64,000 nucleotides of DNA from an uncultured Eubacteriales bacterium (GTDB taxonomy: Bacteria > Bacillota > Clostridia > Oscillospirales > Oscillospiraceae): assembly GCA_900546485.1 (NCBI GenBank), contig URDK01000004.1:4589-68588 (forward strand). Direction: 5' to 3'. How positions within the stretch are numbered: position 1 is the stretch's first letter; each line of letters begins with the position of its first letter. The position numbers were made by a program, and so were the translations under genes. The notes under the pieces were generated by a model, which searched no databases, was not told the DNA's origin, and saw only the letters and a list, made by a program, of their open reading frames with translations. Shown here piece after piece: positions 48,413-62,290 of this stretch.

Positions 48413-48451
48413 TCATGCCGCGGCTCACTAACTGTAAACCGCGGCAAATAA

Positions 48452-48700
48452 TTACTCTGACGTATAAAACCTTGCTCTTCCCTCAAAAAGCTTGTTGAGC
48501 AGCTCGGCTTTGAGCCATGTAGCCAGGCGAAGCTGCTGCTCTGGGCTCAGCTCCTTTGTGTCGGTCAGTTTACCGTTCACGCGAACAAAGGATACAGAGT
48601 TGATCGACAATTGCTTTTTCAAGCAAATCACCACCCAGTATCTATGATATTGTTCGCATATACTGTAAATGACCAGGCAGTCAACTTTTGCAGCCCGCAA
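48452..48700 (-). CDS. Small hypothetical protein overlapping the 3' end of the upstream gene
   Basis: 82-aa ORF with coding-like composition. No recognisable family. Confidence 0.3.
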   Translation of the reverse strand: MRAAKVDCLVIYSICEQYHRYWVVICLKKQLSINSVSFVRVNGKLTDTKELSPEQQLRLATWLKAELLNKLFEGRARFYTSE

Positions 48701-49928: not shown

Positions 49929-49957
49929 TTTATGCTCTCCATTCGATGGAGGCGTGG

Positions 49958-50245
49958 TCATACGATGGGGTCTTCGTACCTCTGGGCCACGGCCTTACCT
50001 TCGTAGTATTTTTTGAGCGCCTTAAAATCCACAGCATAGTGCGGATATTCTAAGTGTTTTGCTGCAGCTTCACTGTCGCGGAAGGTTTCAAACAGAGTAA
50101 GCTCACGTTCTTCAGCATTCCAGAAGGCGGTGTATTCCAGACAGCCAGGTTCTTTTCTGGTTGCAAGTATACAGGGCTTTATGTCATTGAGGTACGCCTC
50201 TTCCATGCCTGCAAGTATTTTAAATTTTACAACGATTTTGACCAT
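49958..50245 (-). CDS. ABM-domain (antibiotic biosynthesis monooxygenase-like) protein
   Basis: 95 aa, ferredoxin-like ABM fold (FKALKKYYEG...). Confidence 0.55.
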   Translation of the reverse strand: MVKIVVKFKILAGMEEAYLNDIKPCILATRKEPGCLEYTAFWNAEERELTLFETFRDSEAAAKHLEYPHYAVDFKALKKYYEGKAVAQRYEDPIV

Positions 50246-50262
50246 ATTCCCTCCATCAGACG

Positions 50263-51615
50263 TCAGTCTTTCTCAAGACCGTTTCTGCGTATCACATCGG
50301 CATACCATTTTCCACTGTCTTTCATGATGCGGCGCTGGTCTTTATAATCTACATACACAAGGCCAAAGCGCTTTTTATAGCCCAGCGCCCATTCAAAGTT
50401 GTCAAACGATGACCAAACCATATATCCACGGACATCAGCTCCGTCGGATATAGCCCTGTGCAACGCGGATAGGTGGCTCTCAAGATAACGGATCCGTTTT
50501 TCGTCTCTTACCAGCTCGTTCCGAATTACCTCGTCATCAAAAGCAGCTCCGTTTTCTGTTACTATTATCGGCTTGCCATAGTCTTTCCAGCAACGCATCA
50601 CGGTATCATAAAAGCCGTCAGGACAAATCGGCCAATTCATGGCGGTGTATTGCAGATTTGTGGGTTTTATGGACTTGACCATGAGCGGCCAACGATCATC
50701 GCCGGCGCCTATGAAGTAGCTGTAATAGTAATTCAAGCCGAAGAAATCAGTGGGGGTAGATATAAGCTCCATGTCACCGGGCGCTATGTCCGGAAGAACT
50801 ACACCGTGATTTTTGTACCAGTCCTGCATATCCGACGGATAGCATCCCTTGTATACGGCATCCAGAAACCAGCGATTCCAGCATCCATCCCAGCGCCTGC
50901 AGGCTTTAACGTCCTCGGGATCTGCCGATATGGCATAATGATGCGGCAAATAGTTGGTTATTCCTATCTGGCCGGATGAACCAGAGGCGCGGAAGGCTCT
51001 GACCATCTTGCCGTGAGCCAACAGTAGATTGTGAGCAGACAGCAAGGCGGATGAGAAATCGTGGATACCTGGCGCATGCTTTCCATCCCAAAAACCGTGA
51101 TAGGAAATGATTTGAGGCTCGAGGATAGTTCCCCAATACGGTACTTCTTTCGGAAACGCCGCAAACACACGCTCGGCTAGTTCAGCCAGCCGGTCAGAGG
51201 TATCGCGGTTGAGCCATCCGCCCCTCTCCTGCAGCTTCTGAGGCAGGTCCCAGTGATAGAGCATTATGAACGGGGCCACACCGTTTTCCAGCATTGAATC
51301 GACAACGCGCCTGTAAAAATCCAGACCCTTTTGATTGAATTTGCCGTCACCGTCGGGAATTATCCTGGGCCATGAAATGGAGATACGTTGGGTATGAAGC
51401 CCCAACTCCCCCATTATCTTGGCATCCTCAGCATACCGGTGGTAGAAATCGCAGGCTACATCACCGGTATCTCCATTTTCAATGTTCCCCGGAGTGCGGC
51501 AGAATCTGTCCCATATGCTCTCGCCTTTTCCGTCCTCGTTCCAAGCTCCCTCCGACTGGTACGACGACGCAGATGCTCCCCACATAAAGTTTTCTGGAAA
51601 TATCAGTTTCGCCAT
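50263..51615 (-). CDS. GH1 beta-glucosidase / 6-phospho-beta-glucosidase
   Basis: FMWGASASSYQSEG, the catalytic TENG acid/base (IIVTENGAA) and nucleophile regions. 450 aa. Confidence 0.85.
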   Translation of the reverse strand: MAKLIFPENFMWGASASSYQSEGAWNEDGKGESIWDRFCRTPGNIENGDTGDVACDFYHRYAEDAKIMGELGLHTQRISISWPRIIPDGDGKFNQKGLDFYRRVVDSMLENGVAPFIMLYHWDLPQKLQERGGWLNRDTSDRLAELAERVFAAFPKEVPYWGTILEPQIISYHGFWDGKHAPGIHDFSSALLSAHNLLLAHGKMVRAFRASGSSGQIGITNYLPHHYAISADPEDVKACRRWDGCWNRWFLDAVYKGCYPSDMQDWYKNHGVVLPDIAPGDMELISTPTDFFGLNYYYSYFIGAGDDRWPLMVKSIKPTNLQYTAMNWPICPDGFYDTVMRCWKDYGKPIIVTENGAAFDDEVIRNELVRDEKRIRYLESHLSALHRAISDGADVRGYMVWSSFDNFEWALGYKKRFGLVYVDYKDQRRIMKDSGKWYADVIRRNGLEKD

Positions 51616-51631
51616 GCACGCCTCTCCTTCT

Positions 51632-52690
51632 TCAAAGGCTTATAGCGGTGCCAAGCCTGTCAGAATCGTATATAGCATTCAGCATACGCTGGACAGTCAG
51701 GCCGTCCTCTGCAGGTGAAATAGGTCTTTTACCCTCGAGAATGCAGTTTACAAAGTGAGCAGTTTCTCTTTCAAATGCGGGCTGCCAGCTGTCTTCCGGG
51801 ACGAGCACCGGCACAGTATCCGTGAGAAAGCCGTCTTCCTCCCCATACAGCTCCAGCGGGCGGAAACAAGCTCCGCCCTTGGTCCCGTAAATCTTGGAAA
51901 ACATTTTTTCCTCGCGACCGTTTATTGCCCAGCTTATGTCCACGCTCATCGAAGCACCGTTTTCAAAGCGAATAAGTGCAGATGCCGCTTCCTCATTGTC
52001 GAACACGCCATTCTTGGCGCCGGCCGCGGCCCAACCCTTTACGCTTCTTGTTTCATAGCTTCCTATATGTCTGTGCGTGACACCCGTAACCAAAACCGGC
52101 TTTGGGCGGCCCATTAGGTACCAAGTTAGGTCAATGACGTGAACCCCAATGTCAAGAACTGCGCCGCCTCCAGACTTGGACTTATCCGTGAACCATCCGC
52201 TCGGTGTGCCTCGGCGTCTTATCCAACCGCAGCGCGCATGATAAATATCGCCGAAACGTCCAGCTTCTCTCAGTTCGGAGAGCATAATGCTTTCCTGCCT
52301 GAAGCGGTTTACAAAGGCCATCATAAACGTTACGCCGTTCTCGTCGGCGGCTCGCTTCATGTTTTCGGCCTCCTGGACACTAATGGCCATAGGCTTTTCG
52401 CAAAGTATGTGTTTACCTGCCTTAGCTGCGGCCACTGCAAGGCTTTCGTGCGACACATTGCCTGTACATATGCTTATGCAGTCAATGTCAGCATCGCTGA
52501 GCACATCCTCGTATTTATCATACGCCTTAGGTATACCGAACCTGGTGCACAGGGCCTGAGCACGATCCAGGTGCCTGTCGAACACAGCGGCCACCTGAGC
52601 GTTTTCGCATTTCAGGAAGGCCGGAATCTGATTGTCTCTGGCCACTGTTCCAGCCCCGATTATGGCAACTCTTACCTTATTTTCTGTCAT
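51632..52690 (-). CDS. Gfo/Idh/MocA-family NAD(P)-dependent oxidoreductase (1 of 3)
   Basis: VRVAIIGAGTVA Rossmann fold and EKP motif. Confidence 0.8.
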   Translation of the reverse strand: MTENKVRVAIIGAGTVARDNQIPAFLKCENAQVAAVFDRHLDRAQALCTRFGIPKAYDKYEDVLSDADIDCISICTGNVSHESLAVAAAKAGKHILCEKPMAISVQEAENMKRAADENGVTFMMAFVNRFRQESIMLSELREAGRFGDIYHARCGWIRRRGTPSGWFTDKSKSGGGAVLDIGVHVIDLTWYLMGRPKPVLVTGVTHRHIGSYETRSVKGWAAAGAKNGVFDNEEAASALIRFENGASMSVDISWAINGREEKMFSKIYGTKGGACFRPLELYGEEDGFLTDTVPVLVPEDSWQPAFERETAHFVNCILEGKRPISPAEDGLTVQRMLNAIYDSDRLGTAISL

Positions 52691-52701
52691 TAGTGCCTCC
52701 A

Positions 52702-53727
52702 TCAGAGCACTTCGCTCATTTCAACTGGCCTGTCCTCTGCAATGGACTTGAGCGCGGCAAAGCTTACCGCGAGGCTGTTTAGATTATCAAATACAGTAGG
52801 AACGCAGCCTTCCTCACCAGACAGCTGACCTTTTATATCATGAAGCACACCGGCTCTGTCCTTCCCGGGGAAGGCAAAATCTTCGCACAGAGCGCCGTCA
52901 ACGCCTACGGACATGTCGAGGCGGTTCGGCTCGTCATTCTCCCACTTGACAGCGCCTTTGTCGGTCTGAAGTATCCAGTCACACTGATATCCGGTCGGGA
53001 AACCTATGGATTTCTCGGCAACGGAGTAGCTTGCCTTGAAGCCGTTTTCAAACTCTATAAGTGCAAAAGCGGCGCCCAGACCGTTTATATCACTCCACTC
53101 CGGATTCCAGCCTCTTGCGTATATGGATTTGACATTGGAACCGCTTATAAAGCGGAGCATATCAAAGTGATGAATAGCGACCTCCAGCATGAGGAGGCTG
53201 GTCTGCTCACGGCGCCAGTCCTTTCTCTGCCACGCAGTCTTTTCGCTGTTCTTTTCATTGGATATACCATGACGGAAAACAACATTAGCCCACGCCGGCT
53301 CGCCAATGCCGGTTTCTCCAAACGAGGCCTTCATCTGCCACAACTGGGGGCGGAAACGATAGTTTTGGCTTACCCACGCCCTTTCAGAACGTCCCTCCAT
53401 AAAGCCGCAGAACTCTTTTGCCTCCTCCAGATTGTCGCAGAGAGGCTTTTCAATAAGAACGTTCTTCCCCGCCAGGACGGCCTTTTTTGCATATTCCACA
53501 TGGAATTTGTGAGGAAGCGCAACAATGACCAGATCAGCTTCACATTTTAGCGCCTCATCATAGTCTGTGTAGCAAATCTCGTCCCGGATACCCCACTTTT
53601 CTTTTGCAGCTGCGAGACTTGCTCCACCTCGGCTGACAAGGGCAACAAGCTCACAGTCGGGCTCGTTGTGTATGTATTCCAGCCAACCTGCGGCCCAGCC
53701 GCTGCTTCCAACCTGAATTACTTTCAT
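52702..53727 (-). CDS. Gfo/Idh/MocA-family oxidoreductase (2 of 3)
   Basis: MKVIQVGSSGWAAGW and EKPL motifs. Confidence 0.75.
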   Translation of the reverse strand: MKVIQVGSSGWAAGWLEYIHNEPDCELVALVSRGGASLAAAKEKWGIRDEICYTDYDEALKCEADLVIVALPHKFHVEYAKKAVLAGKNVLIEKPLCDNLEEAKEFCGFMEGRSERAWVSQNYRFRPQLWQMKASFGETGIGEPAWANVVFRHGISNEKNSEKTAWQRKDWRREQTSLLMLEVAIHHFDMLRFISGSNVKSIYARGWNPEWSDINGLGAAFALIEFENGFKASYSVAEKSIGFPTGYQCDWILQTDKGAVKWENDEPNRLDMSVGVDGALCEDFAFPGKDRAGVLHDIKGQLSGEEGCVPTVFDNLNSLAVSFAALKSIAEDRPVEMSEVL

Positions 53728-53750
53728 ATGACTCTCCTTAACGCAGTTGC

Positions 53751-54866
53751 TCAATCCTCAAGCTGATCTAGGCCAATCGGAGTAAAGCTTGTCTTGAGCT
53801 CGATAGTCTTGCCTGTACGCATAGACTCAAAGCCCGCCTCAATTATTTCAATGACGTGGCAGGCCTGTTCCGCGGTGCCAAGCGGTGCCTTGTCTTCGCG
53901 TACATAGTCGATTAGCTCCATGACATCCCGGTAAACGAAGGGCTCGTGCATTTTGAGGTGTACCGGAGGAATGCTCTTTGCGGCCATGCCCATTATGGGA
54001 TTTTCAAAGAGTTGCTGGTCGTTGAATTTTCCCTTTTCTATTTTACCTTCAGTACCGTAGATTGAAGGAGACATCATATTCTCTCCGCCGGCAAGTGCTG
54101 AATAAAACATGCCGTAAACGTTGTCGCCGAAGTCGAGGAGAAAAGCAAAGTTATCTTCAACTTCACTTTCTATTATCTGCTCACCAAACTTGAACTCCTT
54201 CATAATCTGGCCGCCCATGCAAGACACGCGCTTTACAGGGCCAAGTATGCCGGTCATAGAAGTGAGACCATATACTGCGTGGTCGTACTGAGGTCCGCCG
54301 TCTGGCTTCTTGTAATACCAGGTGGGGACGAGCGGCTCCGAGCCATAGTTTTCCTGACGGTATCCTTCGCGGAGATGATACAGCAGAACTCCACGAACGC
54401 CACCGATGGCATAAGTCAGTCTGCCGAGCTTGTTTTCGAGAACCATGCGCCTGGAAATGCGGTTGATGGGCATGGCCATCATACCGGGCGAGGCCGTGAT
54501 CTTAACATTCATGCGCTTGGCTTCTTCTATAAGTTCGGCTGCCTCGGCGCTGGTCATGGACATGGTTTTGTTAAAGTGTACATGCTTTCCTGCGCGGATC
54601 GCCTTCATGCCCTGCTCATAGTGAAATCTGATGGGTGAGCAGATAGAAACCGCGTCGACATTGGGGTCGGCGAGCAGCTCGTCGTCGGTCATATACCAAT
54701 TCTTTATCCCGTACTGCTTTGCCATGGCCTCAGCTCGTCCGGGAACGGGGTCGCATACAGCGGCAAGATAGACCTTATCCGTGGAGTCCCCAAGTTCAAG
54801 GTGCTTGAATATAGAATTTATTGCTATTTCGCCCGAGCCTATGGCTCCAAGTCCCAACGGTTTCAC
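53751..54866 (-). CDS. Gfo/Idh/MocA-family oxidoreductase (3 of 3)
   Basis: GLGAIGSGEIA...AVCDP...HVHFNKTMSMT. Confidence 0.75.
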   Translation of the reverse strand: MKPLGLGAIGSGEIAINSIFKHLELGDSTDKVYLAAVCDPVPGRAEAMAKQYGIKNWYMTDDELLADPNVDAVSICSPIRFHYEQGMKAIRAGKHVHFNKTMSMTSAEAAELIEEAKRMNVKITASPGMMAMPINRISRRMVLENKLGRLTYAIGGVRGVLLYHLREGYRQENYGSEPLVPTWYYKKPDGGPQYDHAVYGLTSMTGILGPVKRVSCMGGQIMKEFKFGEQIIESEVEDNFAFLLDFGDNVYGMFYSALAGGENMMSPSIYGTEGKIEKGKFNDQQLFENPIMGMAAKSIPPVHLKMHEPFVYRDVMELIDYVREDKAPLGTAEQACHVIEIIEAGFESMRTGKTIELKTSFTPIGLDQLED

Positions 54867-54892
54867 AACTGCATCCTCCTATCTTTCTCTTG

Positions 54893-55888
54893 TCAAAAGC
54901 CCTCTACAATTTCCAGCATTTTGGCCACATACTGCCGTGAAATCTTCCTGTTGTATTCCACGCGGTCATCACGTTCCGCGTCATTGGTAGGCAGCTTGAA
55001 CGCCGGTTCCGCCAGCAGCGGCATTCCATGAGGAGTCGGAGCTTTCTCGATGATCGTTCTTAGTATACGTTCAAAATCGATGTATCCATCGCCCAGATAG
55101 CACCCAGTAGTCACCATTGGCATGTCCGGGTACAACTTGGTTCGCAGCGGATTGTCAACGACGGCAAAGTCCTTGAAATGAGCCGCAACAGCATATGGAG
55201 CTAGATACTCCAGATCCTCCATGGGGTCACAGCAAGCGACAGCACCGTTTCCAAAGTCATAAAGAGCCCGTATATTTTTAGAGCCAATGTCTTCGATTAT
55301 TGAGGCAATTTCTCGCCCATTGAAGTCACAGTGGTTTTCGTAAGCAAATACGAGTCCTGTTCCCTCAAGCATTTCCGCCATTATCTTTAGGTTTGCTGTT
55401 ATGAACTTTCTCTGCTCAGAAAATGGAAACGCCTTATTATAACGGCTGGTTGCCACATTGTTGTGACCGTAGCCTCCACACAAAAAACGGCTGTTAAGTG
55501 CAAGGGCCATTTTTATAGTCCTTTCCACACCTTTCGCAGCCACGGAGCTGTCCGGTGCGTCATCCGGCGCTGAAACTCCCATTGCAGCTCCCGCAGCTCC
55601 CCAGGAATCAACTCGCAGAGGGAGCCCGGCGAGGCCCCATACTGTGAACGGATATAGAAGCAGCTCAACATCGCGTTCTCTGGCTATTCCGGCCATCTCG
55701 CTTAATGTATCCGAGCTCAGCTCCTTTGGTATCATGTGCGGGAACAGTGAAACGGCGCGCGCTCCAAGTCTGGAGCATTCCTCCAGAGTCCATATATATG
55801 ACTCCATGCCGGCAGGAGTGCCGGCAGGAGGCATTAGGTTAAATGGTTGAAAACCGACTCTGAAATCATATGTATTTCCCATCGGCAC
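54893..55888 (-). CDS. Sugar phosphate isomerase/epimerase (xylose-isomerase-like TIM barrel)
   Basis: 331 aa TIM-barrel protein with the metal-ligand pattern typical of IolE/DgpB-like enzymes. Confidence 0.65.
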   Translation of the reverse strand: MPMGNTYDFRVGFQPFNLMPPAGTPAGMESYIWTLEECSRLGARAVSLFPHMIPKELSSDTLSEMAGIARERDVELLLYPFTVWGLAGLPLRVDSWGAAGAAMGVSAPDDAPDSSVAAKGVERTIKMALALNSRFLCGGYGHNNVATSRYNKAFPFSEQRKFITANLKIMAEMLEGTGLVFAYENHCDFNGREIASIIEDIGSKNIRALYDFGNGAVACCDPMEDLEYLAPYAVAAHFKDFAVVDNPLRTKLYPDMPMVTTGCYLGDGYIDFERILRTIIEKAPTPHGMPLLAEPAFKLPTNDAERDDRVEYNRKISRQYVAKMLEIVEGF

Positions 55889-55903
55889 ACCCCTTACCCT
55901 ATA

Positions 55904-56611
55904 TTACTTAAGGCCAAGGACTATCGGCGTGGATTTGAATCCGATACCCATTCTGTCAATGCCCATATCAATGAGCTTAAGGAATTTTTCTCTGTCGCGT
56001 ATTCCGCCGGCTCCCTTGATCTTGCAGCGGCCGTCGGCTGCCTCCATCATGGCCTCGATGACCTCGTAGGTGGCACCCTCATTCTTGCCGCCGGTAAAGA
56101 AGCCGGTGGAGGTTTTTACGAAGTCCGCGCCGGCCGCTATAGCAACTTCAGTGGCCTTCTTGACTTCATCAATAGTGAGCGCATCTACCTCGAAGATGAC
56201 CTTCACATTGGTGCCGTACTTGTGGCAGACATCGCAAACCGCCTTTATATCAGCCTGTACGTCATCCCACTTTCCGCTGCGAATCCAACCATAGTTGGCG
56301 ACAATGTCCAGATCCTCAATGTCGCCATCACGGCAAATGATTTCAGCCTGCATGACCTTTGATTCTGTGCTGGAAAGTCCAAAGGGGAAGTCACAGACCA
56401 CGCATATTCCGGTGTCGGTGCCCTTGGTCAGCTCTCTGGCAATTGGAAGCGACGCAGGATTGATGCACACCGTGGCGCAATGATAATCGATACCCTCCTG
56501 GATGTACTTCCTGATGTCGTCCTGAGTAAACTCAGGCTTGAGCACGGACTGGTCTATATACCTTCCGAGCTCTTCAACACTCATCTCACAGGCTTTTTTA
56601 GTAGGTTTCAT
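55904..56611 (-). CDS. DeoC/LacD-family class I aldolase (deoxyribose-phosphate aldolase-like)
   Basis: Schiff-base lysine context ADFVKTSTGF. The start could instead be 56647. Confidence 0.7.
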   Translation of the reverse strand: MKPTKKACEMSVEELGRYIDQSVLKPEFTQDDIRKYIQEGIDYHCATVCINPASLPIARELTKGTDTGICVVCDFPFGLSSTESKVMQAEIICRDGDIEDLDIVANYGWIRSGKWDDVQADIKAVCDVCHKYGTNVKVIFEVDALTIDEVKKATEVAIAAGADFVKTSTGFFTGGKNEGATYEVIEAMMEAADGRCKIKGAGGIRDREKFLKLIDMGIDRMGIGFKSTPIVLGLK

Positions 56612-56676
56612 ACTGAATCTCGGCGCTTTGCGCCTGGCTCCTTTCACAAAAGAAATATCGGTTAAGTTAAAGATGA

Positions 56677-57657
56677 TTATTTGTTGCCCTTTTTGCTCCT
56701 AACAACGTCGATATAAACCGCGATGAGGAGCAGCGCACCTTTGACAAGAGACTGAGCGTAGGTGTTCATGCTAAGGAGGTTCATGCCGTTGGCAAGTACG
56801 GAGAAGAACAGCATGCCGAGCAGAGTGCCGACAATGTTGCCTTTGCCGCCTGCGACGGAGAGACCACCTATGATGACGGCTGCGATAGCGTCCATATCAG
56901 CGCCGGAGCCCTGGTTCGGAACGGCGACATAGCCCTGAGCTATGTAGAGAATGGTTGCCAGACCGGCGCAGCCGCCGGAGATCATAAAGGCTACTGCCCT
57001 GGTCTTCTTAACATTGATACCGGACAGATACGCCGCTTCTTCGCTGCCGCCAACAGAAATAACGTTCCGTCCGAAGCGCGTATATTTCAATACAATACCT
57101 ATGACCACATAGACTATCGCCGCAATCACTATCATAGTGGGTATGCCAAGAATGTCGCCACGGCCTATCCATTTGATGAAGTCGTCGCTTATCTGGATCA
57201 TGTTGCCGTCCGAAACTATGTACGCAAGCGCGCGGAACACAAGCTGCGTGCCCAGCGTAGTGATGATTGGCGAGATGTGCATGTAGTTCATTACGAGGCC
57301 GTTGCAGATACCGCAGGCCACGCCAACGGCGACAGCGACCAGCAGGAGCACGGGCCCGGATACGCCGGCGTTGTAAGCCACACCGACGACCATGCCGCTG
57401 AAAGCCATTATTGACATCTGTGACAGGTCAAGTCCACCAAGCAGCATGGATACCGTCACGCCGGCCGCGATGATGCCGGATGCGGACATGTATACGCCAA
57501 TATTTTTTATGTTCGACGCCGACAGGAAGTAGGGCGACGCAAAAGACCAAACAATTGACAGAGCAATTACTGCTATCAGCACGCTGCCATATGAGTTGAA
57601 TGCGTTCTTGCCCGCTCCCTTAAGACGGGCGCCGAATCCATTTCCGGTGTTTTCCAT
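56677..57657 (-). CDS. Ribose-type (RbsC-like) ABC transporter permease
   Basis: 10-TM profile, family-2 monosaccharide permease. Confidence 0.8.
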   Translation of the reverse strand: MENTGNGFGARLKGAGKNAFNSYGSVLIAVIALSIVWSFASPYFLSASNIKNIGVYMSASGIIAAGVTVSMLLGGLDLSQMSIMAFSGMVVGVAYNAGVSGPVLLLVAVAVGVACGICNGLVMNYMHISPIITTLGTQLVFRALAYIVSDGNMIQISDDFIKWIGRGDILGIPTMIVIAAIVYVVIGIVLKYTRFGRNVISVGGSEEAAYLSGINVKKTRAVAFMISGGCAGLATILYIAQGYVAVPNQGSGADMDAIAAVIIGGLSVAGGKGNIVGTLLGMLFFSVLANGMNLLSMNTYAQSLVKGALLLIAVYIDVVRSKKGNK

Positions 57658-57660
57658 CTG

Positions 57661-59145
57661 TTACTCTCCTATTGCGCTCTTTACTATATTCACCTGGGTA
57701 ATCTCATCGCCCTCATATTCAGCGACCAGTTTGCCCTCGTGCACAACATATACTCTGTCAGCTATGCCGAGCAGCTCCGGCAGCTCCGCTGCCACATACA
57801 GCACCCCGCACCCAGCCTTGCACAGCGCTTCGATGTCCTTGTAGATCTCAACTTTTGCGCCTACGTCAATGCCTTTTGTCGGATCATTGAGCATAAATAC
57901 CTTGGGCCTTGTGGCAACCCATTTCGAGATGACAATCTTCTGCTGGTTTCCGCCGGAAAGCGAGGATGCCGGAGTATAGGGCGAAGGGGTTTTTATCCGG
58001 TAGTTACTTATCCATTTCAGCGCTGTTTCCCTTTCGCGCTTCAGGTCAATAAACAGGCCTCTTACAAAGTCCTTAAGAGTCACAATGGTCAGGTTGCTGA
58101 GCACCGAGTGACCGAGCATCAGACCTTCGCGTTTTCTCTCCGCGGGAACATAGGCCAGTCCGGCCTTTTTGGCGTCCATTGGCTGGTGGATTTCTGTTTT
58201 CTGTCCCTGTACGTAGAACTCACCTTTACGGTATTTACGGACGCCGAACGCACACTGGATTATCTCCGAGCAACCAGAGCCCATAAGTCCGTACAATCCA
58301 ACAATCTCATGGCGGCGAACGTTCAGAGAAATATCGTGCAGGAAACCGTCATCCAGACCTTTGATCTCAAACACGACGTCGCCGAGCTCACGTTTGGACA
58401 CTGGATACATATCCTTCAACTCGCGCCCACACATGCTGTTGATTATGGCATCTTTAGTTGTGTCCTTTATTCCACCTTCGTAGACACTTTCGCCATTTCG
58501 CAGGACCTGTACGCGGTCAGCTATGGCAAACACCTCATCAAGCTTGTGTGAGATATAGATGATACCCTTGCCCTCGGACTTTAGCTTGCGGATTATATCC
58601 ATGAGCTTGTCCGTTTCTTCCTGGTTAAGAGCGGATGTGGGCTCATCCATTATGATAACTTTAAGTTCCTTGGAGTAGGCTCTGCCTATCTCAACAAGCT
58701 GCTGCTCTGCGGTAGACAGCTGACCCAACAAGGTGGAGGGGCGAAGATGCCCCAATCCAACCTGTTCCTGAATGTTCATGCTGTCGGCGTACAGCTTCTT
58801 GTAATCTATCAATCCACCGTGAGTTGGCTGAGAACCGAGAAATATATTTTCGGCAATTGAAAGCCCTTTAACATTGGTCAACTCTTGGTATATTGCCGTT
58901 ATACCCAGAGCCAGAGCCCTTGAGGGAATCATTTTGCCTTCATCTTTTTCTTCAAAAAGTATCTGGCCCTCGTCCTGCTGATAAGCACCGGACATTATCT
59001 TGATAAGCGTGGACTTACCTGCCCCGTTCTCTCCAACTACGGCAAGAACTTCGCCACTGTTCACTTTCAAGCTGACGTTGTTCAGTGCTATAACACCAGG
59101 GAACCGCTTGGTAATTCCCTTCATTTCAAGCAGGGTATTGCTCAA
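57661..59145 (-). CDS. Sugar ABC transporter ATP-binding protein with duplicated ATPase domains (RbsA-like)
   Basis: Two Walker A motifs (GENGAGKST and a degenerate second one) plus LSGGNQQK. Confidence 0.85.
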   Translation of the reverse strand: MSNTLLEMKGITKRFPGVIALNNVSLKVNSGEVLAVVGENGAGKSTLIKIMSGAYQQDEGQILFEEKDEGKMIPSRALALGITAIYQELTNVKGLSIAENIFLGSQPTHGGLIDYKKLYADSMNIQEQVGLGHLRPSTLLGQLSTAEQQLVEIGRAYSKELKVIIMDEPTSALNQEETDKLMDIIRKLKSEGKGIIYISHKLDEVFAIADRVQVLRNGESVYEGGIKDTTKDAIINSMCGRELKDMYPVSKRELGDVVFEIKGLDDGFLHDISLNVRRHEIVGLYGLMGSGCSEIIQCAFGVRKYRKGEFYVQGQKTEIHQPMDAKKAGLAYVPAERKREGLMLGHSVLSNLTIVTLKDFVRGLFIDLKRERETALKWISNYRIKTPSPYTPASSLSGGNQQKIVISKWVATRPKVFMLNDPTKGIDVGAKVEIYKDIEALCKAGCGVLYVAAELPELLGIADRVYVVHEGKLVAEYEGDEITQVNIVKSAIGE

Positions 59146-59207
59146 TTTTGCAACACCTCCAAATTCGCTGTTACCTGCATGGAAAAGTTGGTACTCCTTA
59201 TACCTTG

Positions 59208-60236
59208 TTATTCGGCGGGGTAGTAATCATACACGTTGGCAGCGGTAACCATAACGCCGCTGTGCTCCGTGAAGGCTTCAGGGTTTTCACCGTTCATGAT
59301 GGCGTTAACCTTATCAAGCAGCTTGTAGCCGTAAGTGGAAGTCTGAAGGTCAATAGAGCCGTACCAAGTGCTGTACTCACCGGAGTCTGCATACTGCTTG
59401 ATGTGATTGAGGAAGGTCTCAGTGCAGTCGCAGGAGAGCAGCATGACGTTCTCAGAAGCTCCAGCGTCAGCGACAGCATTGACTATTACAGGGGCAAAGG
59501 TGTCGGTGCAAGTGATGTAAAGAATGTTCTTAGCGTCGGGATGAGAGGTAAGGACACTGGCGGTATTGGCTCCGATGGTGCTGGTGTCAAGGCCGGTGTC
59601 AATCTTGACCCACTCAACGTCTGCAAGATACTCATATCCGGGAGTAGCCATAAGCGTTTCAACAGCCTTGTCGGTGCGAGAGGCCATTGCGGGGACAGCA
59701 TTGTAAGCGTTGGCAGTGATGATAAGATCAATCTTGCCGCCCCACTCCTCGGTAACGGCCTCAGCTGCAAAGTTTCCAAAGAACTCACCGAGACCGTCAT
59801 TAGAAGTGCCGTAGCTGTATGCACCCTCAACCGGGCAATTAAAGGCAACCGCCATAAAGGGCATGCCGGATTCAACAGCTTCCTCAGCATACGCATTGGC
59901 CACTTCTTCAATGGAATAGCCGTCAACGATGATATCTACGTCCTGAGCTATGAGAGAATCATAGGCGGAGCGCATACCGGCGCTATCCTTAGCAATCTGA
60001 TAGACCATTTCAACGCCCTGCTCCTCACAAGCAGCAGTAAAGCTCTCAAGGACCTCTTTCCAGAAGCCGTCGGAAGGATCGGAAGTTATGTATCCAATTT
60101 TGTAGCTCGAGGTGTTCTCGCCGTCAGTTGCGGGGGCGTCGCTTGCCTGTGCATCTGCGGGCTCTGAACCACAGCCGGACAATACTAGGCAAAAGAGCAT
60201 AACGATAGCCAGCAGCATAGACAGTTTCTTTTTCAT
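59208..60236 (-). CDS. Sugar ABC transporter substrate-binding lipoprotein (RbsB-like, PBP type I)
   Basis: Lipobox LSGCGS. 342 aa. Confidence 0.8.
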   Translation of the reverse strand: MKKKLSMLLAIVMLFCLVLSGCGSEPADAQASDAPATDGENTSSYKIGYITSDPSDGFWKEVLESFTAACEEQGVEMVYQIAKDSAGMRSAYDSLIAQDVDIIVDGYSIEEVANAYAEEAVESGMPFMAVAFNCPVEGAYSYGTSNDGLGEFFGNFAAEAVTEEWGGKIDLIITANAYNAVPAMASRTDKAVETLMATPGYEYLADVEWVKIDTGLDTSTIGANTASVLTSHPDAKNILYITCTDTFAPVIVNAVADAGASENVMLLSCDCTETFLNHIKQYADSGEYSTWYGSIDLQTSTYGYKLLDKVNAIMNGENPEAFTEHSGVMVTAANVYDYYPAE

Positions 60237-60510
60237 TTGTTTCTCCTCCTGTTTAAATTAATTCTTCTACTCATTTAAATTTAATGAGCTTATGCGACAC
60301 ATTAATAGCTTTCACAATTTTGCAATTTGCATCAATATCGATTACTTACTGATGACATGATAACCGAGAATTTTGCAATTATCAACATTATTTTGCGTTT
60401 TCTTGCGCTTACTTTGCAATTTTGTGACTTTAAACAGATTTAGGTTCAAATTTTCTCCCTAAAGAAACAGATAACTGTTAATTATTGTTATTTCAAAGTG
60501 AAGATTAATT

Positions 60511-60544
60511 AAAAAAGCAGGCCGTGAACAAGCACGGCCTGCTT
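60511..60544 (-). terminator. Rho-independent terminator after the DeoR gene
   Basis: agcaggccgtg-aacaagc-acggcctgct preceded on the plus strand by an A6 tract. Confidence 0.7.
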
Positions 60545-60565
60545 TCAGATAAGCTGTATACAAAT

Positions 60566-61324
60566 TTATACTACGTCAAAATTGTCAGGGACATTGACCA
60601 ACTTCGGGCACTTATCACAAATTACCCGTTCAAAATTGTTTAGCGTATCCAACTTACAGAAACTACGGCGATTTAACTTTCCGGAGTCTAAAAGAAGGTA
60701 ACAATGATCTCCATTTTGCCTGGCCAAATTTTTAATGGCAAGCGTATCAAGTTCATTTGTGTATGCCAAGCCCTCATTAAGATCGGCACAAGTACAACTA
60801 ATAAATACCCGATCGAAGTGAAACTGTTCCAACATCTGCTGAGTAAGAGTACCCACGCTCATGGCATAATGCGTGAGGTATGTGCCCCCTATCAGAACAA
60901 TGTCAGCTACAGGATTGTTCATCGATCGAACAAACAGCTCACTGTGTGTGACAATCTTCACATTACGCTTTTCCAGGAACTTTGCCAGCGCGGCAGCGCT
61001 GGTACCGCCGTCAACAAATATACATTCTCCATCTTGAATATACTCATTGGCTTTTTGGGCCACGCGGAGTTTTCCCTCAAAATTGAGAGACTTTTTGGCG
61101 CGCATGGTCAGCTCTGCGTCATTACTGGATTCGTCGGCTTTTTCGTTCAACTTGGCCCCGCCGGTAACTCTTTTGAGCTTGCCTTCATTTTCAAGCTTTT
61201 CAAAATCTCTTCTGACTGTTGCCTCGGAGATGCCAAGTTCTTTTGCGACGTCCTTTAGGTTAATTATACCTTTCTCATTGAGTTGAGAAATAATATATCT
61301 TGTTCTTTCTGAAGCAAGCACCAT
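60566..61324 (-). CDS. DeoR/GlpR-family transcriptional regulator
   Basis: N-terminal HTH (INLKDVAKELGISEATVRRD) and a C-terminal sugar-phosphate-sensor domain. Confidence 0.85.
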   Translation of the reverse strand: MVLASERTRYIISQLNEKGIINLKDVAKELGISEATVRRDFEKLENEGKLKRVTGGAKLNEKADESSNDAELTMRAKKSLNFEGKLRVAQKANEYIQDGECIFVDGGTSAAALAKFLEKRNVKIVTHSELFVRSMNNPVADIVLIGGTYLTHYAMSVGTLTQQMLEQFHFDRVFISCTCADLNEGLAYTNELDTLAIKNLARQNGDHCYLLLDSGKLNRRSFCKLDTLNNFERVICDKCPKLVNVPDNFDVV

Positions 61325-61400
61325 GTGCTCCCCCTCACATTTTGAGTACTTCTATAATTTAGATACTACTACGTATTTTGCCAAATGTCCACAGAAAATG

Positions 61401-62249
61401 TCAAGTTTTAATTGGATTAAGCGCAAAATACTCATAAAACAGCTTCAGCAGAGCGGGCTTGTTGCAGTCCCACTCAATGTTGAAGCGCGAAGCAGGTACA
61501 ACGACCATCCAACCGCCGCAAGCGGCACGAAGATCATCCACACTCATGTCGCAGAGCTTGGCGTACTCGCTCTCATAAGCTCTAACAAAACGCTTAATAC
61601 TGCCGCGAGCGCTTTGCATTCTTTCCGCACGCTCGGGATCGACCTTCCCCGGCTCGATATTTCCTCCGAAGTCAAACATTTGGATTGTGCGCGCAACGTC
61701 AGCAAATGGATCTCCCGCGCTGGCATCACTCCAGTCAATGGTGAAAATACCGCGTTCATTATAAATCAGATTGCCAGGATGATAGTCGTTGTGGCAGAGA
61801 CTGTTTCCGTCCGGAAGTTTTTCAAGAAGACGCAGCATCCTGTTGGTGAGATCTGAGCCAAGGTTGTATTCTGAAAGCCGCAGCAGCCGCTCATACCTCA
61901 CTTTGCTGTCCTCAAGTCCATCCACTGGACAGCTATGCATATCAAAGTGAACCTTTGCAAATCCCACAGCCAGCTCTTCAGGAGAAGCTTCACCTGTAAC
62001 GAGAAGCTTCATCATGCTCTCTCCTTTTATGTATTCCTGGAGCATGGCACGTTTACCTTCATGGTTGTTCAGATATCCCCTGTATTCAGGCACAAGAATA
62101 CCACAGCTCTGAACGGTCTGGGTGCAGAGGATTTCTCTTTCTATATCTGCCTGAGGTACATAGTCTCTGTATATCTTGATGATGTTATCGGCGCCATATA
62201 ACTCTACATCAGCCGTGAACCCTGTTGTGTTGCGCTCATTATTTTCCAT
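61401..62249 (-). CDS. APH-fold small-molecule phosphotransferase (aminoglycoside/sugar-kinase family)
   Basis: Brenner motif CHNDYHPGNLI and IDWSDASAGDP. The second ATG was chosen as the start. Confidence 0.65.
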   Translation of the reverse strand: MENNERNTTGFTADVELYGADNIIKIYRDYVPQADIEREILCTQTVQSCGILVPEYRGYLNNHEGKRAMLQEYIKGESMMKLLVTGEASPEELAVGFAKVHFDMHSCPVDGLEDSKVRYERLLRLSEYNLGSDLTNRMLRLLEKLPDGNSLCHNDYHPGNLIYNERGIFTIDWSDASAGDPFADVARTIQMFDFGGNIEPGKVDPERAERMQSARGSIKRFVRAYESEYAKLCDMSVDDLRAACGGWMVVVPASRFNIEWDCNKPALLKLFYEYFALNPIKT

Positions 62250-62267
62250 GTGCACATCCCTTTCAGT

Positions 62268-62290
62268 ATATTGCAACATTCTGCAAATAT
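62268..62290. repeat. Near-palindromic motif ATATTGCAACATTCTGCAAATAT next to the recombinase gene, related to the cotJC palindrome
   Basis: Read directly. It shares TATTGCA...CTGCAA(A)TA with the 48391-48412 site. Confidence 0.4.

What the first reader, a model, noticed from the sequence alone, without database searches (positions are those of the whole stretch)
49958..62249. Oxidative sugar/glycoside catabolic island: three Gfo/Idh/MocA oxidoreductases, a TIM-barrel isomerase, a DeoC-type aldolase, a GH1 glycosidase, an APH-fold kinase, a G1PDH-like dehydrogenase, an ABC importer and a DeoR regulator
The gene set is not a textbook pathway. GH1 beta-glucosidases without a PTS point to a beta-glycoside substrate. 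Multiple Gfo/Idh/MocA dehydrogenases with a xylose-isomerase-fold enzyme form the recurring module for inositol catabolism (IolG/IolE) and for the 3-keto-glycoside route of O-/C-glycoside cleavage in gut bacteria (DgpA/DgpBC-like). An APH-fold kinase and a DeoC aldolase would funnel the product into glycolysis. All genes are co-directional behind a DeoR repressor and a dedicated RbsBAC-like importer. The substrate is unknown.
Basis: inference. Interest (0 to 1): 0.55.

Follow-up and report, generated by a model that had tools for sequence, protein, structure and literature searches.

The report
Gut-bacterial glycoside operon, possible 2-deoxy route
A mobile 13-gene sugar operon from a gut Clostridia bacterium carries an unstudied five-enzyme module that probably removes the 2-hydroxyl from an imported glucoside's sugar, then frees, phosphorylates and splits that sugar; this would be a new way to break down sugars.

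Summary
All the named genes are real, co-directional on the minus strand and tightly packed (48681-62279).

It is neither an iol operon nor a DgpABC-type C-glycoside system.

- **Conserved core.** DERA-like aldolase, a new xylose-isomerase-fold TIM barrel and three mutually distant Gfo/Idh/MocA enzymes, followed by a glycosidase. It occurs in 18 species genomes of uncultured gut Clostridia, in a GH1/CUT2 version (this window) and a GH13/CUT1 version.
- **First enzyme.** GfoC resembles the glucoside 3-dehydrogenases YcjS and DgpA.
- **Both glycosidases are altered at a glycone-contact residue.** GH1 has LEP in place of NEP. GH13 has NQD in place of NHD.
- **The aldolase is a separate DERA subfamily.** It carries a 4-residue insertion. 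In other genomes this subfamily sits beside a glycyl-radical diol dehydratase and a sugar kinase.

My best reading, at about 0.4: 3-oxidation, IolE-like dehydration and two reductions give a 2-deoxyglycoside. This is then hydrolysed, phosphorylated and cleaved to acetaldehyde plus a sugar phosphate. No step has been tested biochemically.

The G1PDH-like gene is not a conserved part of the operon. The operon rides on a serine-recombinase element. The scan had already noted the GH13 version in two other genomes.

The parts
61401..62279 (-). APH-fold (PF01636) kinase. The likely true start is the ATG at 62249 (282 aa). Proposed kinase for the released deoxy sugar.
   Evidence: Pfam E 1.2e-21. An HxDxxxxN motif (HNDYHPGN) and a DFG motif are present. 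It is present at 55-79% identity beside DeoR in L001, L004 and L006. L007 has a PfkB 'Khk' kinase instead.
60566..61324 (-). DeoR-family regulator (HTH_DeoR + DeoRC), followed by a hairpin with a T-run.
   Evidence: Pfam. The hairpin can be read. The gene is conserved in L001, L004, L006 and L007.
60237..60565 (-). Control region. It holds a promoter-like TTGATA-17-TATCAT (60385-60357) and three ATTGCAAA repeats (60319-60420), which are candidate DeoR operators.
   Evidence: 3 of the window's 9 ATTGCAAA matches fall within about 100 nt, against 2.3 expected in 64 kb. TGCAAA-type repeats also lie upstream of the binding-protein gene in L001, L002 and L004.
59208..60236 (-). Substrate-binding lipoprotein of a CUT2 (monosaccharide-type) ABC importer.
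   Evidence: Peripla_BP_4 E 4e-23. The N-terminus has a lipobox, LSGC. The only PDB relative is an L-arabinose-binding protein, 4kzk, E 5e-7.
57661..59145 (-). ABC ATPase with two nucleotide-binding domains.
   Evidence: Two ABC_tran domains. It is closest to XylG, AraG and RbsA but below their cut-offs.
56677..57657 (-). ABC permease (BPD_transp_2).
   Evidence: It is closest to AraH at 218 bits, against a cut-off of 378.
55904..56647 (-). DERA-like class I aldolase of a separate subfamily.
   Evidence: TIGR00126 scores 188 bits, above the cut-off of 117. D102, K167 and K201 are conserved. A 4-residue insertion follows the K-T-S-T-G-F motif and is shared only with the DeoCs of module and glycyl-radical-enzyme loci. 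The clade has 100/100 support on a stem of 0.95. The genome also has a housekeeping deoC on another contig.
54893..55888 (-). Xylose-isomerase-fold TIM barrel of a new family. Proposed keto-sugar dehydratase.
   Evidence: PF01261 E 2.4e-18. The model has pLDDT 91.9. PDB matches are all tied at Z 20-23. Profile hits are weak only: Art22, 4ovx, IolE and AsbF. E184, D211, H237 and E294 are invariant in 29 sequences.
53751..54866 (-). GfoA, a Gfo/Idh/MocA oxidoreductase. It has N-K-T in place of the family's E-K-P motif and D-x-x-x-Y in place of the D-x-x-x-H seen in YcjS and GfoC. Proposed ketoreductase.
52702..53754 (-). GfoB, a Gfo/Idh/MocA oxidoreductase with the EKP motif. Proposed ketoreductase.
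51632..52702 (-). GfoC, a Gfo/Idh/MocA oxidoreductase. Proposed glucoside 3-dehydrogenase.
   Evidence: PDB DgpA1 9m3d E 2e-52 and DgpA 7xr9 E 1e-50. It is 30% identical over its full length to E. coli YcjS, E 3e-52. The EKP and DIGVH motifs are present.
50263..51615 (-). Cytoplasmic GH1 glycosidase with an altered -1 subsite (I-L-E-P-Q in place of the N-E-P motif).
   Evidence: TIGR03356 scores 553 bits, above the cut-off of 478. The nucleophile motif TENG and the acid/base Glu are present. Leu replaces Asn in all 6 orthologues. None of the 150 nearest cluster representatives has Leu there.
49958..50245 (-). ABM-fold protein of 95 aa. Its role is unknown; it may be a mutarotase or a diketone isomerase.
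   Evidence: PF03992 E 1.5e-10. It is conserved after GH1 in L002, L003, L004, L006 and L007. The model has pLDDT 88.6. Fold hits are tied and include LsrG.
48681..49961 (-). G1PDH-like Fe-ADH_2 dehydrogenase. It overlaps the ABM stop codon by 4 nt. It is a local addition, not part of the conserved operon.
   Evidence: PF13685. NF002022 scores 157 bits, against a cut-off of 413. It is absent from L001-L007, where a hexokinase or Khk sits at this position. The family occurs in 54 of 399 genomes of the class, and a 64% paralogue lies elsewhere in this genome.
62390..63847 (+). Large serine recombinase at the edge of the island (context).
   Evidence: Resolvase, Recombinase and Zn_ribbon_recom domains. 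A 58%-identical recombinase lies beside the kinase gene in L001.

Best explanation
This is a DeoR-controlled catabolic operon carried on a serine-recombinase element. It imports a small beta-glucoside through a CUT2 ABC importer and degrades its sugar by a redox-assisted 2-deoxygenation.

Proposed steps:
1. GfoC, which is YcjS/DgpA-like, oxidises C3 of the glucosyl residue.
2. The new TIM-barrel enzyme removes water through an enediolate, as IolE does with 2-keto-inositol. The product is a 2-deoxy-3,4-diketo-glycoside.
3. GfoA and GfoB reduce the two ketones, giving a 2-deoxyglycoside.
4. The GH1, whose 2-OH-binding Asn is replaced by Leu, hydrolyses the 2-deoxyglycoside.
5. The freed 2-deoxy sugar is phosphorylated. 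Here the kinase is APH-fold. In relatives a PfkB 'Khk' or a hexokinase-family enzyme is present, and in L004 and L006 both an APH kinase and a hexokinase-family gene are present.
6. The DERA-like aldolase cleaves the phosphate into acetaldehyde plus an aldose phosphate.

Shown here: the gene set, its conservation, the sequence signatures and the family memberships. Inferred: every chemical step, the order of the steps and the substrate.
For: 1. **Conserved module.** DeoC, TIM, GfoA, GfoB, GfoC and then a glycosidase recur in 18 loci. There are two versions, with different importers, regulators and glycosidase families. Between the versions the enzymes are 40-52% identical and DeoC 71-88%.
2. 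**First step.** GfoC matches glucoside 3-dehydrogenases over its full length.
3. **Enzyme count.** One oxidation, one dehydration and two reductions fit three Gfo enzymes plus one TIM barrel. The TIM family keeps the Glu-Asp-His-Glu metal site. Its weak profile hits (Art22, 4ovx, IolE, AsbF) include the dehydratases IolE and AsbF.
4. **Two altered glycosidases.** The glycosidase directly after GfoC is altered at a glycone-contact residue in both versions.
   - GH1 has Asn to Leu in all 6 orthologues, and in none of the 150 nearest representatives.
   - GH13 has region IV His to Gln in all 22 orthologues at 60% identity or more, and in none of the 98 next relatives.
   - The accessory GH2 keeps its Asn-Glu pair.
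5. **Aldolase.** It scores as DERA and keeps the catalytic Asp and both Lys residues. It is a second copy in this genome. Its clade is marked by a long stem and a 4-residue insertion next to the Schiff-base lysine.
6. **Link to a dehydratase.** The same aldolase clade sits in other genomes beside a glycyl-radical enzyme nearest to glycerol and propanediol dehydratases, together with a PfkB kinase, an activase and a CUT2 importer. This is a different way to make a deoxy sugar phosphate. The published YbiW/PflD-plus-aldolase route is a precedent (PMC13450708).
7. **A kinase is usually at hand.** Different loci carry different kinase families, and Khk overlaps DeoC by 4 nt in L018.
Against: - No enzyme has been assayed and no substrate is known.
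- At 30% identity, the position that GfoC oxidises cannot be read from its sequence.
- The TIM barrel is no closer to dehydratases than to epimerases, isomerases, lyases or hydratases by fold.
- The roles I give to the GH1 Asn and the GH13 His come from my knowledge of solved GH1 and GH13 complexes and were not checked here. The GH13 His may contact O3 as much as O2. About 10% of related GH1 proteins also lack the Asn, though none has Leu.
- A CUT2 importer usually carries monosaccharides, which fits a glycoside poorly.
- Five GH13-type loci (L009/L010, L012, L013, L014, L017) show no kinase nearby.
- It is unclear why a cell would deoxygenate glucose rather than use glycolysis.
- If the aldolase still needs deoxyribose 5-phosphate, a hexoside substrate does not fit.
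Confidence: 0.4

Rival explanations
1. Eliminative (non-Koshland) deglycosylation, as in the Bacteroides BT2156-2160 and Alistipes AL clusters, DgpA-BC, or the levoglucosan Lgd enzymes. GfoC makes the 3-keto-glucoside. The TIM barrel acts as a 1,2-lyase, and perhaps as a hydratase, and releases the aglycone. GfoA and GfoB reduce 3-keto-glucose to glucose. The aldolase and kinase serve something else.
For: - GfoC is DgpA/YcjS-like.
- TIM-barrel lyases of this superfamily do exactly this. A Gram-positive cluster of two oxidoreductases and two such 'isomerases' is described in 10.1101/2024.03.25.586180.
- AtHYD, DgpBC, DfgAB and CGD are among the tied fold matches.
Against: - Scores against the curated BT_2158, BT_2159 and levoglucosan dehydrogenase models are far below the cut-offs: 43 vs 750, 31 vs 650 and 147 vs 650.
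- The operon has no DUF1080 partner and no DgpB-like small subunit.
- A lyase route makes the conserved Koshland-type glycosidase redundant. It does not explain that enzyme's altered glycone site in two unrelated families.
- It leaves the tightly linked DERA subfamily and the kinases unexplained.
Confidence: 0.2
2. Glycoside epimerisation, as in E. coli ycjQRS. A rare-sugar glycoside is oxidised, epimerised at a neighbouring carbon by the TIM barrel and reduced again to a glucoside. The GH1 then hydrolyses the glucoside.
For: - GfoC is 30% identical to YcjS, E 3e-52.
- YcjR and ketose 3-epimerases are among the tied fold matches.
- A glycosidase follows the redox genes, as phosphorylases do in the ycj cluster.
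Against: - The TIM barrel has no sequence similarity to YcjR; the best BLASTP E-value is 0.41.
- Three oxidoreductases are more than this scheme needs.
- If the product were an ordinary glucoside, the glycosidases should keep their canonical glycone-binding residues. They do not.
- The aldolase link is unexplained.
Confidence: 0.12
3. A 1-deoxy or anhydro-sugar route, an NAD-dependent counterpart of 'anhydroglycolysis' or of AI-2 (Lsr) processing. A monosaccharide-sized compound such as 1,5-anhydroglucitol is oxidised and ring-opened by beta-elimination to a 1-deoxy-diketose. That product is reduced or isomerised, phosphorylated and cleaved by the class I aldolase.
For: - The importer is of the monosaccharide (CUT2) type, nearest to pentose importers.
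- 1,5-anhydrofructose reductases are among the PDB relatives of GfoA and GfoC.
- YbiW/PflD plus an aldolase is a published precedent (PMC13450708).
- The ABM protein superposes on LsrG at TM 0.89, and Lsr also combines a CUT2 importer, a kinase and a DeoC/LacD-family enzyme.
- Several loci carry a 'ketohexokinase'-type PfkB kinase.
Against: - It gives no role to the conserved GH1 or GH13, nor to GH2 or GH35 plus galactokinase in the other version.
- The LsrG match is tied with many other ABM proteins at 17% identity.
- The aldolase is DERA-type, not FSA-type or LsrF-type.
Confidence: 0.12
4. An ordinary inositol (iol) operon, or a mosaic of unrelated sugar genes brought together on a mobile element.
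For: - There are weak hits to IolG (84-127 bits) and IolE (26 bits).
- The island is mobile and its last gene varies between loci.
Against: - The IolG and IolE cut-offs (355 and 290 bits) are far from met, and the operon has no IolB, IolC, IolD or IolJ families.
- Gene order and content are conserved across 7 loci, and the core across 18 loci down to 40% identity. That argues against a chance mosaic.
Confidence: 0.05

Closest known systems
E. coli ycjQRS (YcjS D-glucoside 3-dehydrogenase, YcjR 3-keto-glycoside 4-epimerase, YcjQ) within the ycjM-V cluster
   Same: - A Gfo/Idh/MocA enzyme of the same subgroup as GfoC (30% identity, E 3e-52).
- It works with a xylose-isomerase-fold TIM barrel and a second reductase on intact glycosides.
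- The genes sit in an ABC-importer operon with enzymes that split glycosides.
   Different: - The TIM barrel is unrelated to YcjR in sequence.
- This operon has three Gfo enzymes and no zinc dehydrogenase.
- A DERA-like aldolase and a kinase are linked to it.
- Its glycosidase is a modified Koshland enzyme, not a phosphorylase.
3-keto eliminative glycoside cleavage: BT2156-2160 and AL1-5 (10.1101/2024.03.25.586180), DgpA/DgpBC, and Agrobacterium OGE/AtHYD
   Same: - The likely first step is NAD-dependent C3 oxidation by a DgpA-like enzyme.
- That enzyme is partnered with a metal-dependent TIM barrel of the same superfamily.
   Different: - No orthology to the curated families.
- No DUF1080 protein and no DgpB subunit.
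- All enzymes here are cytoplasmic.
- A conserved GH1 or GH13 with an altered glycone site and a dedicated aldolase are present.
IolG/IolE steps of myo-inositol catabolism
   Same: The proposed chemistry is the same. A Gfo/Idh/MocA dehydrogenase makes an alpha-hydroxyketone, and a TIM-barrel enzyme dehydrates it to a deoxy-diketone. IolE is one of the few sequence-level relatives of the TIM barrel.
   Different: Scores are far below the family cut-offs. No IolB, IolC, IolD or IolJ is present. The likely substrate is a glycoside, not a cyclitol.
YbiW/PflD 'anhydroglycolysis' (glycyl-radical C-O lyase plus FSA aldolase; PMC13450708), and the uncharacterised glycyl-radical-enzyme/PfkB/DeoC loci found here
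   Same: The logic is to make a deoxy sugar phosphate and split it with a class I aldolase. The same DERA subfamily serves both the glycyl-radical-enzyme loci and this module.
   Different: This operon has no radical enzyme. The deoxygenation would be driven by NAD and a metal-dependent TIM barrel. The aldolase is DERA-type, not transaldolase-type.
NDP-2-deoxysugar biosynthesis (2,3-dehydratase plus Gfo/Idh/MocA 3-ketoreductase such as KijD10)
   Same: The 2-OH is removed next to a keto group and a Gfo/Idh/MocA enzyme then reduces the ketone. KijD10-type 'sugar 3-ketoreductase' entries are among GfoC's PDB relatives.
   Different: That route is biosynthetic, acts on nucleotide sugars and uses a Nudix-type dehydratase. 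This one is catabolic and acts on free glycosides. The resemblance is in logic only; it comes from my own knowledge and was not tested.

Membership tests
Gfo/Idh/MocA oxidoreductases | N-terminal Rossmann domain (PF01408) plus the C-terminal alpha/beta domain | tested here: met
   All three proteins match both domains. GfoB and GfoC have the EKP motif. GfoA has N-K-T, so the Lys is kept.
Glucoside 3-dehydrogenase (YcjS/DgpA type), for GfoC | Full-length similarity to characterised members; activity on C3 of glucosides | tested here: inconclusive
   DgpA1 E 2e-52 and YcjS 30% identity, E 3e-52. There is no curated model for this family. Activity cannot be tested here.
DgpBC/CarBC/DfgAB C-glycoside deglycosidase | A TIM-barrel catalytic subunit orthologous to DgpC or CarB, plus a small partner subunit gene | tested here: not met
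   The match is at fold level only (Z about 20, 14-18% identity), tied with epimerases and others. There is no sequence hit. No small-subunit gene lies among the operon ORFs.
myo-inositol iol operon | IolG and IolE above the curated cut-offs, plus IolD, IolB, IolC and IolJ | tested here: not met
   TIGR04380 scores 70-127 bits against 355. TIGR04379 scores 26 bits against 290. No other iol family is present in the operon.
Levoglucosan (Lgd) and BT2156-2160 pathways | Scores above the NCBIfam cut-offs for LevoglcsnDh, BT_2158 and BT_2159; a DUF1080 or second TIM partner | tested here: not met
   147 bits against 650, 43 against 750 and 31 against 650. There is only one TIM barrel and no DUF1080 protein.
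Deoxyribose-phosphate aldolase (DERA, TIGR00126) | Score above the cut-off; Schiff-base Lys167, Lys201 and Asp102 (E. coli numbering) | tested here: met
   188 bits against 117. All three residues are invariant. It forms a separate clade with a 4-residue insertion after the K-T-S-T-G-F motif and a changed C-terminal Gly-x-Ser-Ser region. Substrate identity is therefore open.
GH1 beta-glucosidase (TIGR03356) | Score above the cut-off; the nucleophile motif (T-E-N-G) and the acid/base motif (N-E-P) | tested here: inconclusive
   553 bits against 478. Both catalytic Glu residues are present. The Asn of N-E-P is Leu in all orthologues. It is a family member by score, but with a non-canonical glycone site.
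CUT2 sugar ABC importer (RbsBAC-like) | Peripla_BP_4 binding protein, fused double ATPase and BPD_transp_2 permease | tested here: met
   No equivalog cut-off is reached for any known sugar.
sn-Glycerol-1-phosphate dehydrogenase (G1PDH/AraM) | Score above the NF002022 cut-off | tested here: not met
   157 bits against 413. The best PDB relatives are G1PDHs at E 1e-36. It is a superfamily member only.
Aminoglycoside/choline-type APH-fold kinases | PF01636 domain with the catalytic HxDxxxxN motif and a metal-binding Asp | tested here: met
   78 bits against 23. The motifs are present. It matches no specific subfamily: the PDB, NCBIfam and Atlas results are all generic.

The most novel reading that the evidence does not exclude
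Uncultured gut Clostridia have a previously undescribed, oxygen- and radical-independent catabolic pathway. It deoxygenates the sugar of an intact glycoside at C2 by 3-oxidation, TIM-barrel dehydration and double reduction. Koshland glycosidases then release the 2-deoxy sugar; these have been re-tooled twice, in GH1 and in GH13, for a glycone without a 2-OH. A specialised DERA cleaves the sugar's phosphate. In other genomes a glycyl-radical dehydratase pathway feeds the same aldolase.
Probability: 0.4. Interest if true: 0.8.

Novelty: new variant of a known kind. Interest (0 to 1): 0.62.

Why it matters
- **A new pathway, if the reading holds.** It would add a new way to break down sugars, glycoside 2-deoxygenation followed by DERA cleavage, to the few known alternatives to plain hydrolysis plus glycolysis.
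- **Functions for unassigned families.** It would give a function to a new TIM-barrel family, to two orphan Gfo/Idh/MocA families and to a distinct DERA subfamily.
- **Parallel changes in two glycosidase families.** They would be a rare natural case of Koshland enzymes adapted to 2-deoxy glycones, which is of interest for glycosidase mechanism and engineering.
- **Practical tools.** The enzymes could make 2-deoxy sugars and 2-deoxyglycosides.
- **Ecology.** The pathway consumes NADH and yields acetaldehyde, so it could serve as an electron sink in gut fermenters. It also travels on a recombinase element.
- **If the mechanism is wrong.** The module is still a conserved, uncharacterised sugar system of abundant uncultured gut bacteria.

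Tried and rejected
I could not inspect the contigs of the closest protein hits and used genome-contig loci instead.
- **Literature.** Ten searches found no paper on this gene combination or on the glycyl-radical-enzyme-plus-DeoC loci. 'Art22' and 'prokaryotic ketohexokinase' returned nothing useful. One query was poorly chosen.
- **Fold search for the TIM barrel.** It gave only tied matches, so it cannot assign a reaction.
- **ESM Atlas for the kinase.** It gave only generic APH clusters.
- **ABM protein.** Folding it did not separate a mutarotase, an LsrG-like isomerase or a monooxygenase.
- **G1PDH-like gene.** The neighbourhood of its paralogue was uninformative.
- **Remote TIM homologues** (about 30% identity) lack the Gfo and DeoC partners, so they say nothing about this module.
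- **Deoxynucleoside or deoxyribose salvage.** Considered and set aside. No phosphorylase or mutase is present, and the glycosidases point to O-glycosides.
- **Sulfoquinovose pathways.** Considered and set aside. GfoB has only a remote hit to the Gfo/Idh/MocA entries 8qc2 and 8qc3, and the aldolase is not YihT-like.

Full report
**1. What is there**

Thirteen minus-strand genes fill 48681-62279. Pfam and NCBIfam identify them as follows:

| Gene | Coordinates |
|---|---|
| APH-fold kinase | 61401-62279 |
| DeoR regulator | 60566-61324 |
| Peripla_BP_4 binding protein | 59208-60236 |
| Double ABC ATPase | 57661-59145 |
| BPD_transp_2 permease | 56677-57657 |
| DeoC aldolase | 55904-56647 |
| AP_endonuc_2 TIM barrel | 54893-55888 |
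| GfoA (Gfo/Idh/MocA) | 53751-54866 |
| GfoB (Gfo/Idh/MocA) | 52702-53754 |
| GfoC (Gfo/Idh/MocA) | 51632-52702 |
| GH1 | 50263-51615 |
| G1PDH-like Fe-ADH_2 protein | 48681-49961 |

- The homologues of the kinase are 280-288 aa long.
- From the binding-protein gene onward the genes are 62 nt or less apart, or overlap.
- The DeoR gene ends in a hairpin with a T-run.
- The 329-nt spacer before the binding-protein gene holds a promoter-like site. It also holds three ATTGCAAA repeats within about 100 nt. These are 3 of the 9 copies in the window, where 2.3 are expected.
- TGCAAA-type repeats recur upstream of the binding-protein gene in related loci.
- The binding protein has a lipobox. The enzymes have no signal peptides.

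**2. Setting**

- G+C falls from about 0.58 to about 0.50 across the block.
- A large serine recombinase abuts it at 62390-63847.
- The TIM-barrel protein was found in none of 120 other genomes of the same family at E 1e-30 or better.
- Locus L001, from a MAG titled Anaerotignum, carries the same genes at 81% DNA identity over 6.2 kb. A 58%-identical recombinase lies beside its kinase gene.
- The operon is therefore cargo of a mobile element. Earlier notes of this scan describe that element as splitting cotJC. I did not re-test that claim.

**3. Comparative anatomy**

A degenerate-pattern scan of one genome per species found 54 loci with TIM relatives. In 18 of them the TIM gene is accompanied by the other module genes.

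*GH1 type (L001-L007).* These repeat the window's order: kinase, DeoR, CUT2 importer, DeoC, TIM, GfoA, GfoB, GfoC, GH1, ABM. Identity to the window is 57-98%.
- The G1PDH-like gene is never there.
- Its place is taken by a hexokinase-family gene in L002, L004 and L006, or by a PfkB 'Khk' (PF25270) kinase in L007.

*GH13 type (L008-L018).* These share only the enzyme core.
- TIM is 40-43% identical, the Gfo proteins 43-52% and DeoC 71-88%.
- The core sits in a different frame: a GntR regulator, a CUT1 importer and a GH13 directly after GfoC.
- Accessory genes vary and include GH2, or a GH35-like gene with galactokinase.
- In four loci a Khk kinase overlaps DeoC by 4 nt.

The unit under selection is therefore DeoC + TIM + three Gfo enzymes + a glycosidase, usually with a kinase of one family or another.

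More remote TIM relatives (about 30% identity) lack all these partners.

**4. The enzymes**

*The three Gfo proteins.* They are only 20-25% identical to each other.
- GfoC matches DgpA1 (9m3d, E 2e-52) and DgpA (7xr9). It is 30% identical over its full length to E. coli YcjS, the D-glucoside 3-dehydrogenase, with E 3e-52. It has the EKP and D-x-x-x-H motifs.
- GfoA and GfoB have only distant, uncharacterised relatives.
- GfoA has N-K-T for EKP and Tyr for the His.

*The TIM barrel.*
- It has no close solved relative. A profile finds only Art22, 4ovx, IolE and AsbF, at E 2e-7 to 5e-3.
- A confident model (pLDDT 91.9) gives the xylose-isomerase-like fold.
- Art22, AtHYD, IolI, ketose epimerases, AsbF, DfgAB, IolE, CGD and DgpBC are all tied at Z 20-23.
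- It shows no similarity to YcjR.
- The Glu184-Asp211-His237-Glu294 metal site, and also His186, Cys187, Asp188, Lys239 and Asp240, are invariant across 29 sequences.
- It is a metal-dependent enzyme of a new family. Its reaction cannot be read from the fold.

**5. The aldolase**

- It passes the DERA model (188 bits against a cut-off of 117) and keeps Asp102, Lys167 and Lys201.
- The genome has a separate, more canonical deoC on another contig (252 bits). That copy is only 34% identical.
- In a maximum-likelihood tree the module aldolases form a clade with 100/100 support on a stem of 0.95 substitutions per site.
- A class-wide search found the same subfamily, at 71-75% identity, in three genomes that lack the TIM/Gfo module.
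- In two of these genomes it sits beside all of the following:
  - a GntR regulator and a CUT2 importer;
  - an 805-aa glycyl-radical enzyme;
  - a PfkB kinase;
  - a radical-SAM activase;
  - one Gfo/Idh/MocA gene.

  One of the two (L094) also shows a PHP-domain gene.
- In the third genome (L077) only the glycyl-radical enzyme and a PHP-domain gene were identified near it.
- These aldolases fall inside the module clade.
- They share its 4-residue insertion directly after the K-T-S-T-G-F Schiff-base motif. Housekeeping DERAs lack that insertion.
- The radical enzyme is nearest to B12-independent glycerol dehydratase (1r8w, E 1e-203) and to propanediol dehydratase.
- A radical enzyme that makes a deoxy sugar phosphate for a class I aldolase has a published precedent in YbiW/PflD (PMC13450708).
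- This subfamily therefore appears to be the common end-point of two different ways of removing a hydroxyl from a sugar.

**6. The glycosidases**

*GH1.*
- It passes the beta-glucosidase model (553 bits against 478) and has both catalytic Glu residues.
- Its acid/base motif reads I-L-E-P-Q rather than N-E-P. All six orthologues share this.
- Among the 150 nearest cluster representatives from 1.8 billion proteins, about 90% have Asn there and none has Leu.
- In solved GH1 complexes this Asn hydrogen-bonds the glycone 2-OH. This is my own knowledge and was not checked here.

*GH13.*
- In the GH13 version, region IV reads N-Q-D instead of N-H-D.
- All 22 orthologues at 60% identity or more have Gln. 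All 98 next-nearest relatives, at 55% or less and mostly named oligo-1,6-glucosidase by the databases, have His.
- That His contacts O2/O3 of the -1 glucose. This too is my own knowledge.

*GH2.* The accessory GH2 keeps its Asn-Glu pair.

Two unrelated glycosidase families occupy the same place in the operon, and both have changed a residue that reads the C2 side of the glycone. This is the strongest internal clue that the sugar reaching them is modified there.

**7. Model**

The proposed steps are:
1. Import of a small beta-glucoside.
2. C3 oxidation by GfoC.
3. Enediolate-driven loss of the 2-OH on the TIM barrel. The chemistry is that of IolE on 2-keto-inositol, and the product is a 2-deoxy-3,4-diketone.
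4. Two ketoreductions by GfoA and GfoB.
5. Hydrolysis of the 2-deoxyglycoside by the modified GH1.
6. Phosphorylation.
7. DERA-type cleavage to acetaldehyde plus an aldose phosphate.

The model uses every conserved gene and explains the count of three reductases and one TIM barrel. It consumes one net NADH.

It remains inference. The weak points are these:
- The position that GfoC oxidises is unknown.
- The TIM reaction is unknown.
- The importer is of the monosaccharide type.
- Five loci lack a nearby kinase.
- The physiological benefit is unclear.

I rate the model at 0.4.

**8. Rivals**

| Rival | Rating | Main objection |
|---|---|---|
| 3-keto lyase route (10.1101/2024.03.25.586180) | 0.20 | Makes the glycosidase redundant and ignores the aldolase |
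| ycjQRS-type epimerisation | 0.12 | Does not explain the altered glycosidases |
| 1-deoxy/anhydro-sugar or Lsr-like route | 0.12 | Gives the glycosidases no role |
| iol operon or chance mosaic | 0.05 | Fails the family cut-offs; order and content are conserved |

The third rival is supported by the importer type and by the tied LsrG fold match of the ABM protein.

**9. Peripheral genes**

- The ABM protein is conserved only in the GH1 version, and its role is open.
- The G1PDH-like protein belongs to a family found in 54 of 399 genomes of the class.
- A 64% paralogue of it lies elsewhere in this genome, in an uninformative context.
- It is translationally coupled here, but it is a local addition.

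**10. Novelty**

- No curated family, solved structure or paper in the held library describes this module.
- The scan had already noted the GH13 version in two other genomes, with a similar '2-deoxy' reading. Those notes were AI leads.
- New here are:
  - the GH1 signature;
  - the sharp GH13 clade boundary;
  - the aldolase clade, its insertion and its link to glycyl-radical-enzyme loci;
  - the differing kinase families between loci;
  - the mobile GH1/CUT2 version.

Noticed in passing
L076 (G350:C56), L078 + L094 (G499:C5), L077 (G328:C10): An uncharacterised operon in other Clostridia. It carries the same DERA subfamily, a GntR regulator, a CUT2 importer and a glycyl-radical enzyme nearest to glycerol and propanediol dehydratases. 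It also has a PfkB kinase, a radical-SAM activase, one Gfo/Idh/MocA gene and a PHP-domain protein. It looks like a radical route to a deoxy sugar phosphate. No paper on it was found.
   Followed up: partly
L019, L020, L022, L027 (also L024, L025, L036, L054): Remote homologues of the TIM barrel (about 30% identity) occur as tandem arrays of 2 to 6 paralogous genes in Oscillospiraceae MAGs, with no Gfo/Idh/MocA or DeoC partners.
   Followed up: no
L010:14274-15971 and orthologues (L011-L018): The GH13 that follows GfoC in the second version of the module has region IV N-Q-D instead of N-H-D. The boundary is sharp: all 22 orthologues have Gln and all 98 next relatives have His.
   Followed up: yes
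L002:10915-12132, L004:16097-17320, L006:15965-17206: Hexokinase-family genes (PF00349/PF03727) close the operon in three relatives. In my experience this family is uncommon in bacteria. L007, L008, L015, L016 and L018 carry a PfkB 'prokaryotic ketohexokinase' (PF25270) instead.
   Followed up: partly
G000:C134:2069-2680 (L055:1444-2913, minus strand): The genome's housekeeping deoC lies at the C-terminal end of a 489-aa open frame. It may be fused to, or run in frame with, an upstream gene that I did not identify.
   Followed up: no
window 62390-63847 and L001:2051-3691: Related large serine recombinases (58% identity) flank the kinase end of the island in two different genomes. The island's TIM gene was not found in 120 other genomes of the window's family. 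This fits horizontal spread of the operon as element cargo.
   Followed up: partly
L059 (E. coli K-12, 4615000-4622000): In E. coli K-12, deoC lies next to yjjI (a DUF3029 protein) and yjjW (a putative glycyl-radical-enzyme activase). This is another DERA beside glycyl-radical-related genes. It may be coincidence.
   Followed up: no
window 48416-48446: A 13-bp-stem hairpin or palindrome lies just past the last operon gene, at the edge of the low-GC block. It could be a terminator or part of the element's recombination site.
   Followed up: no
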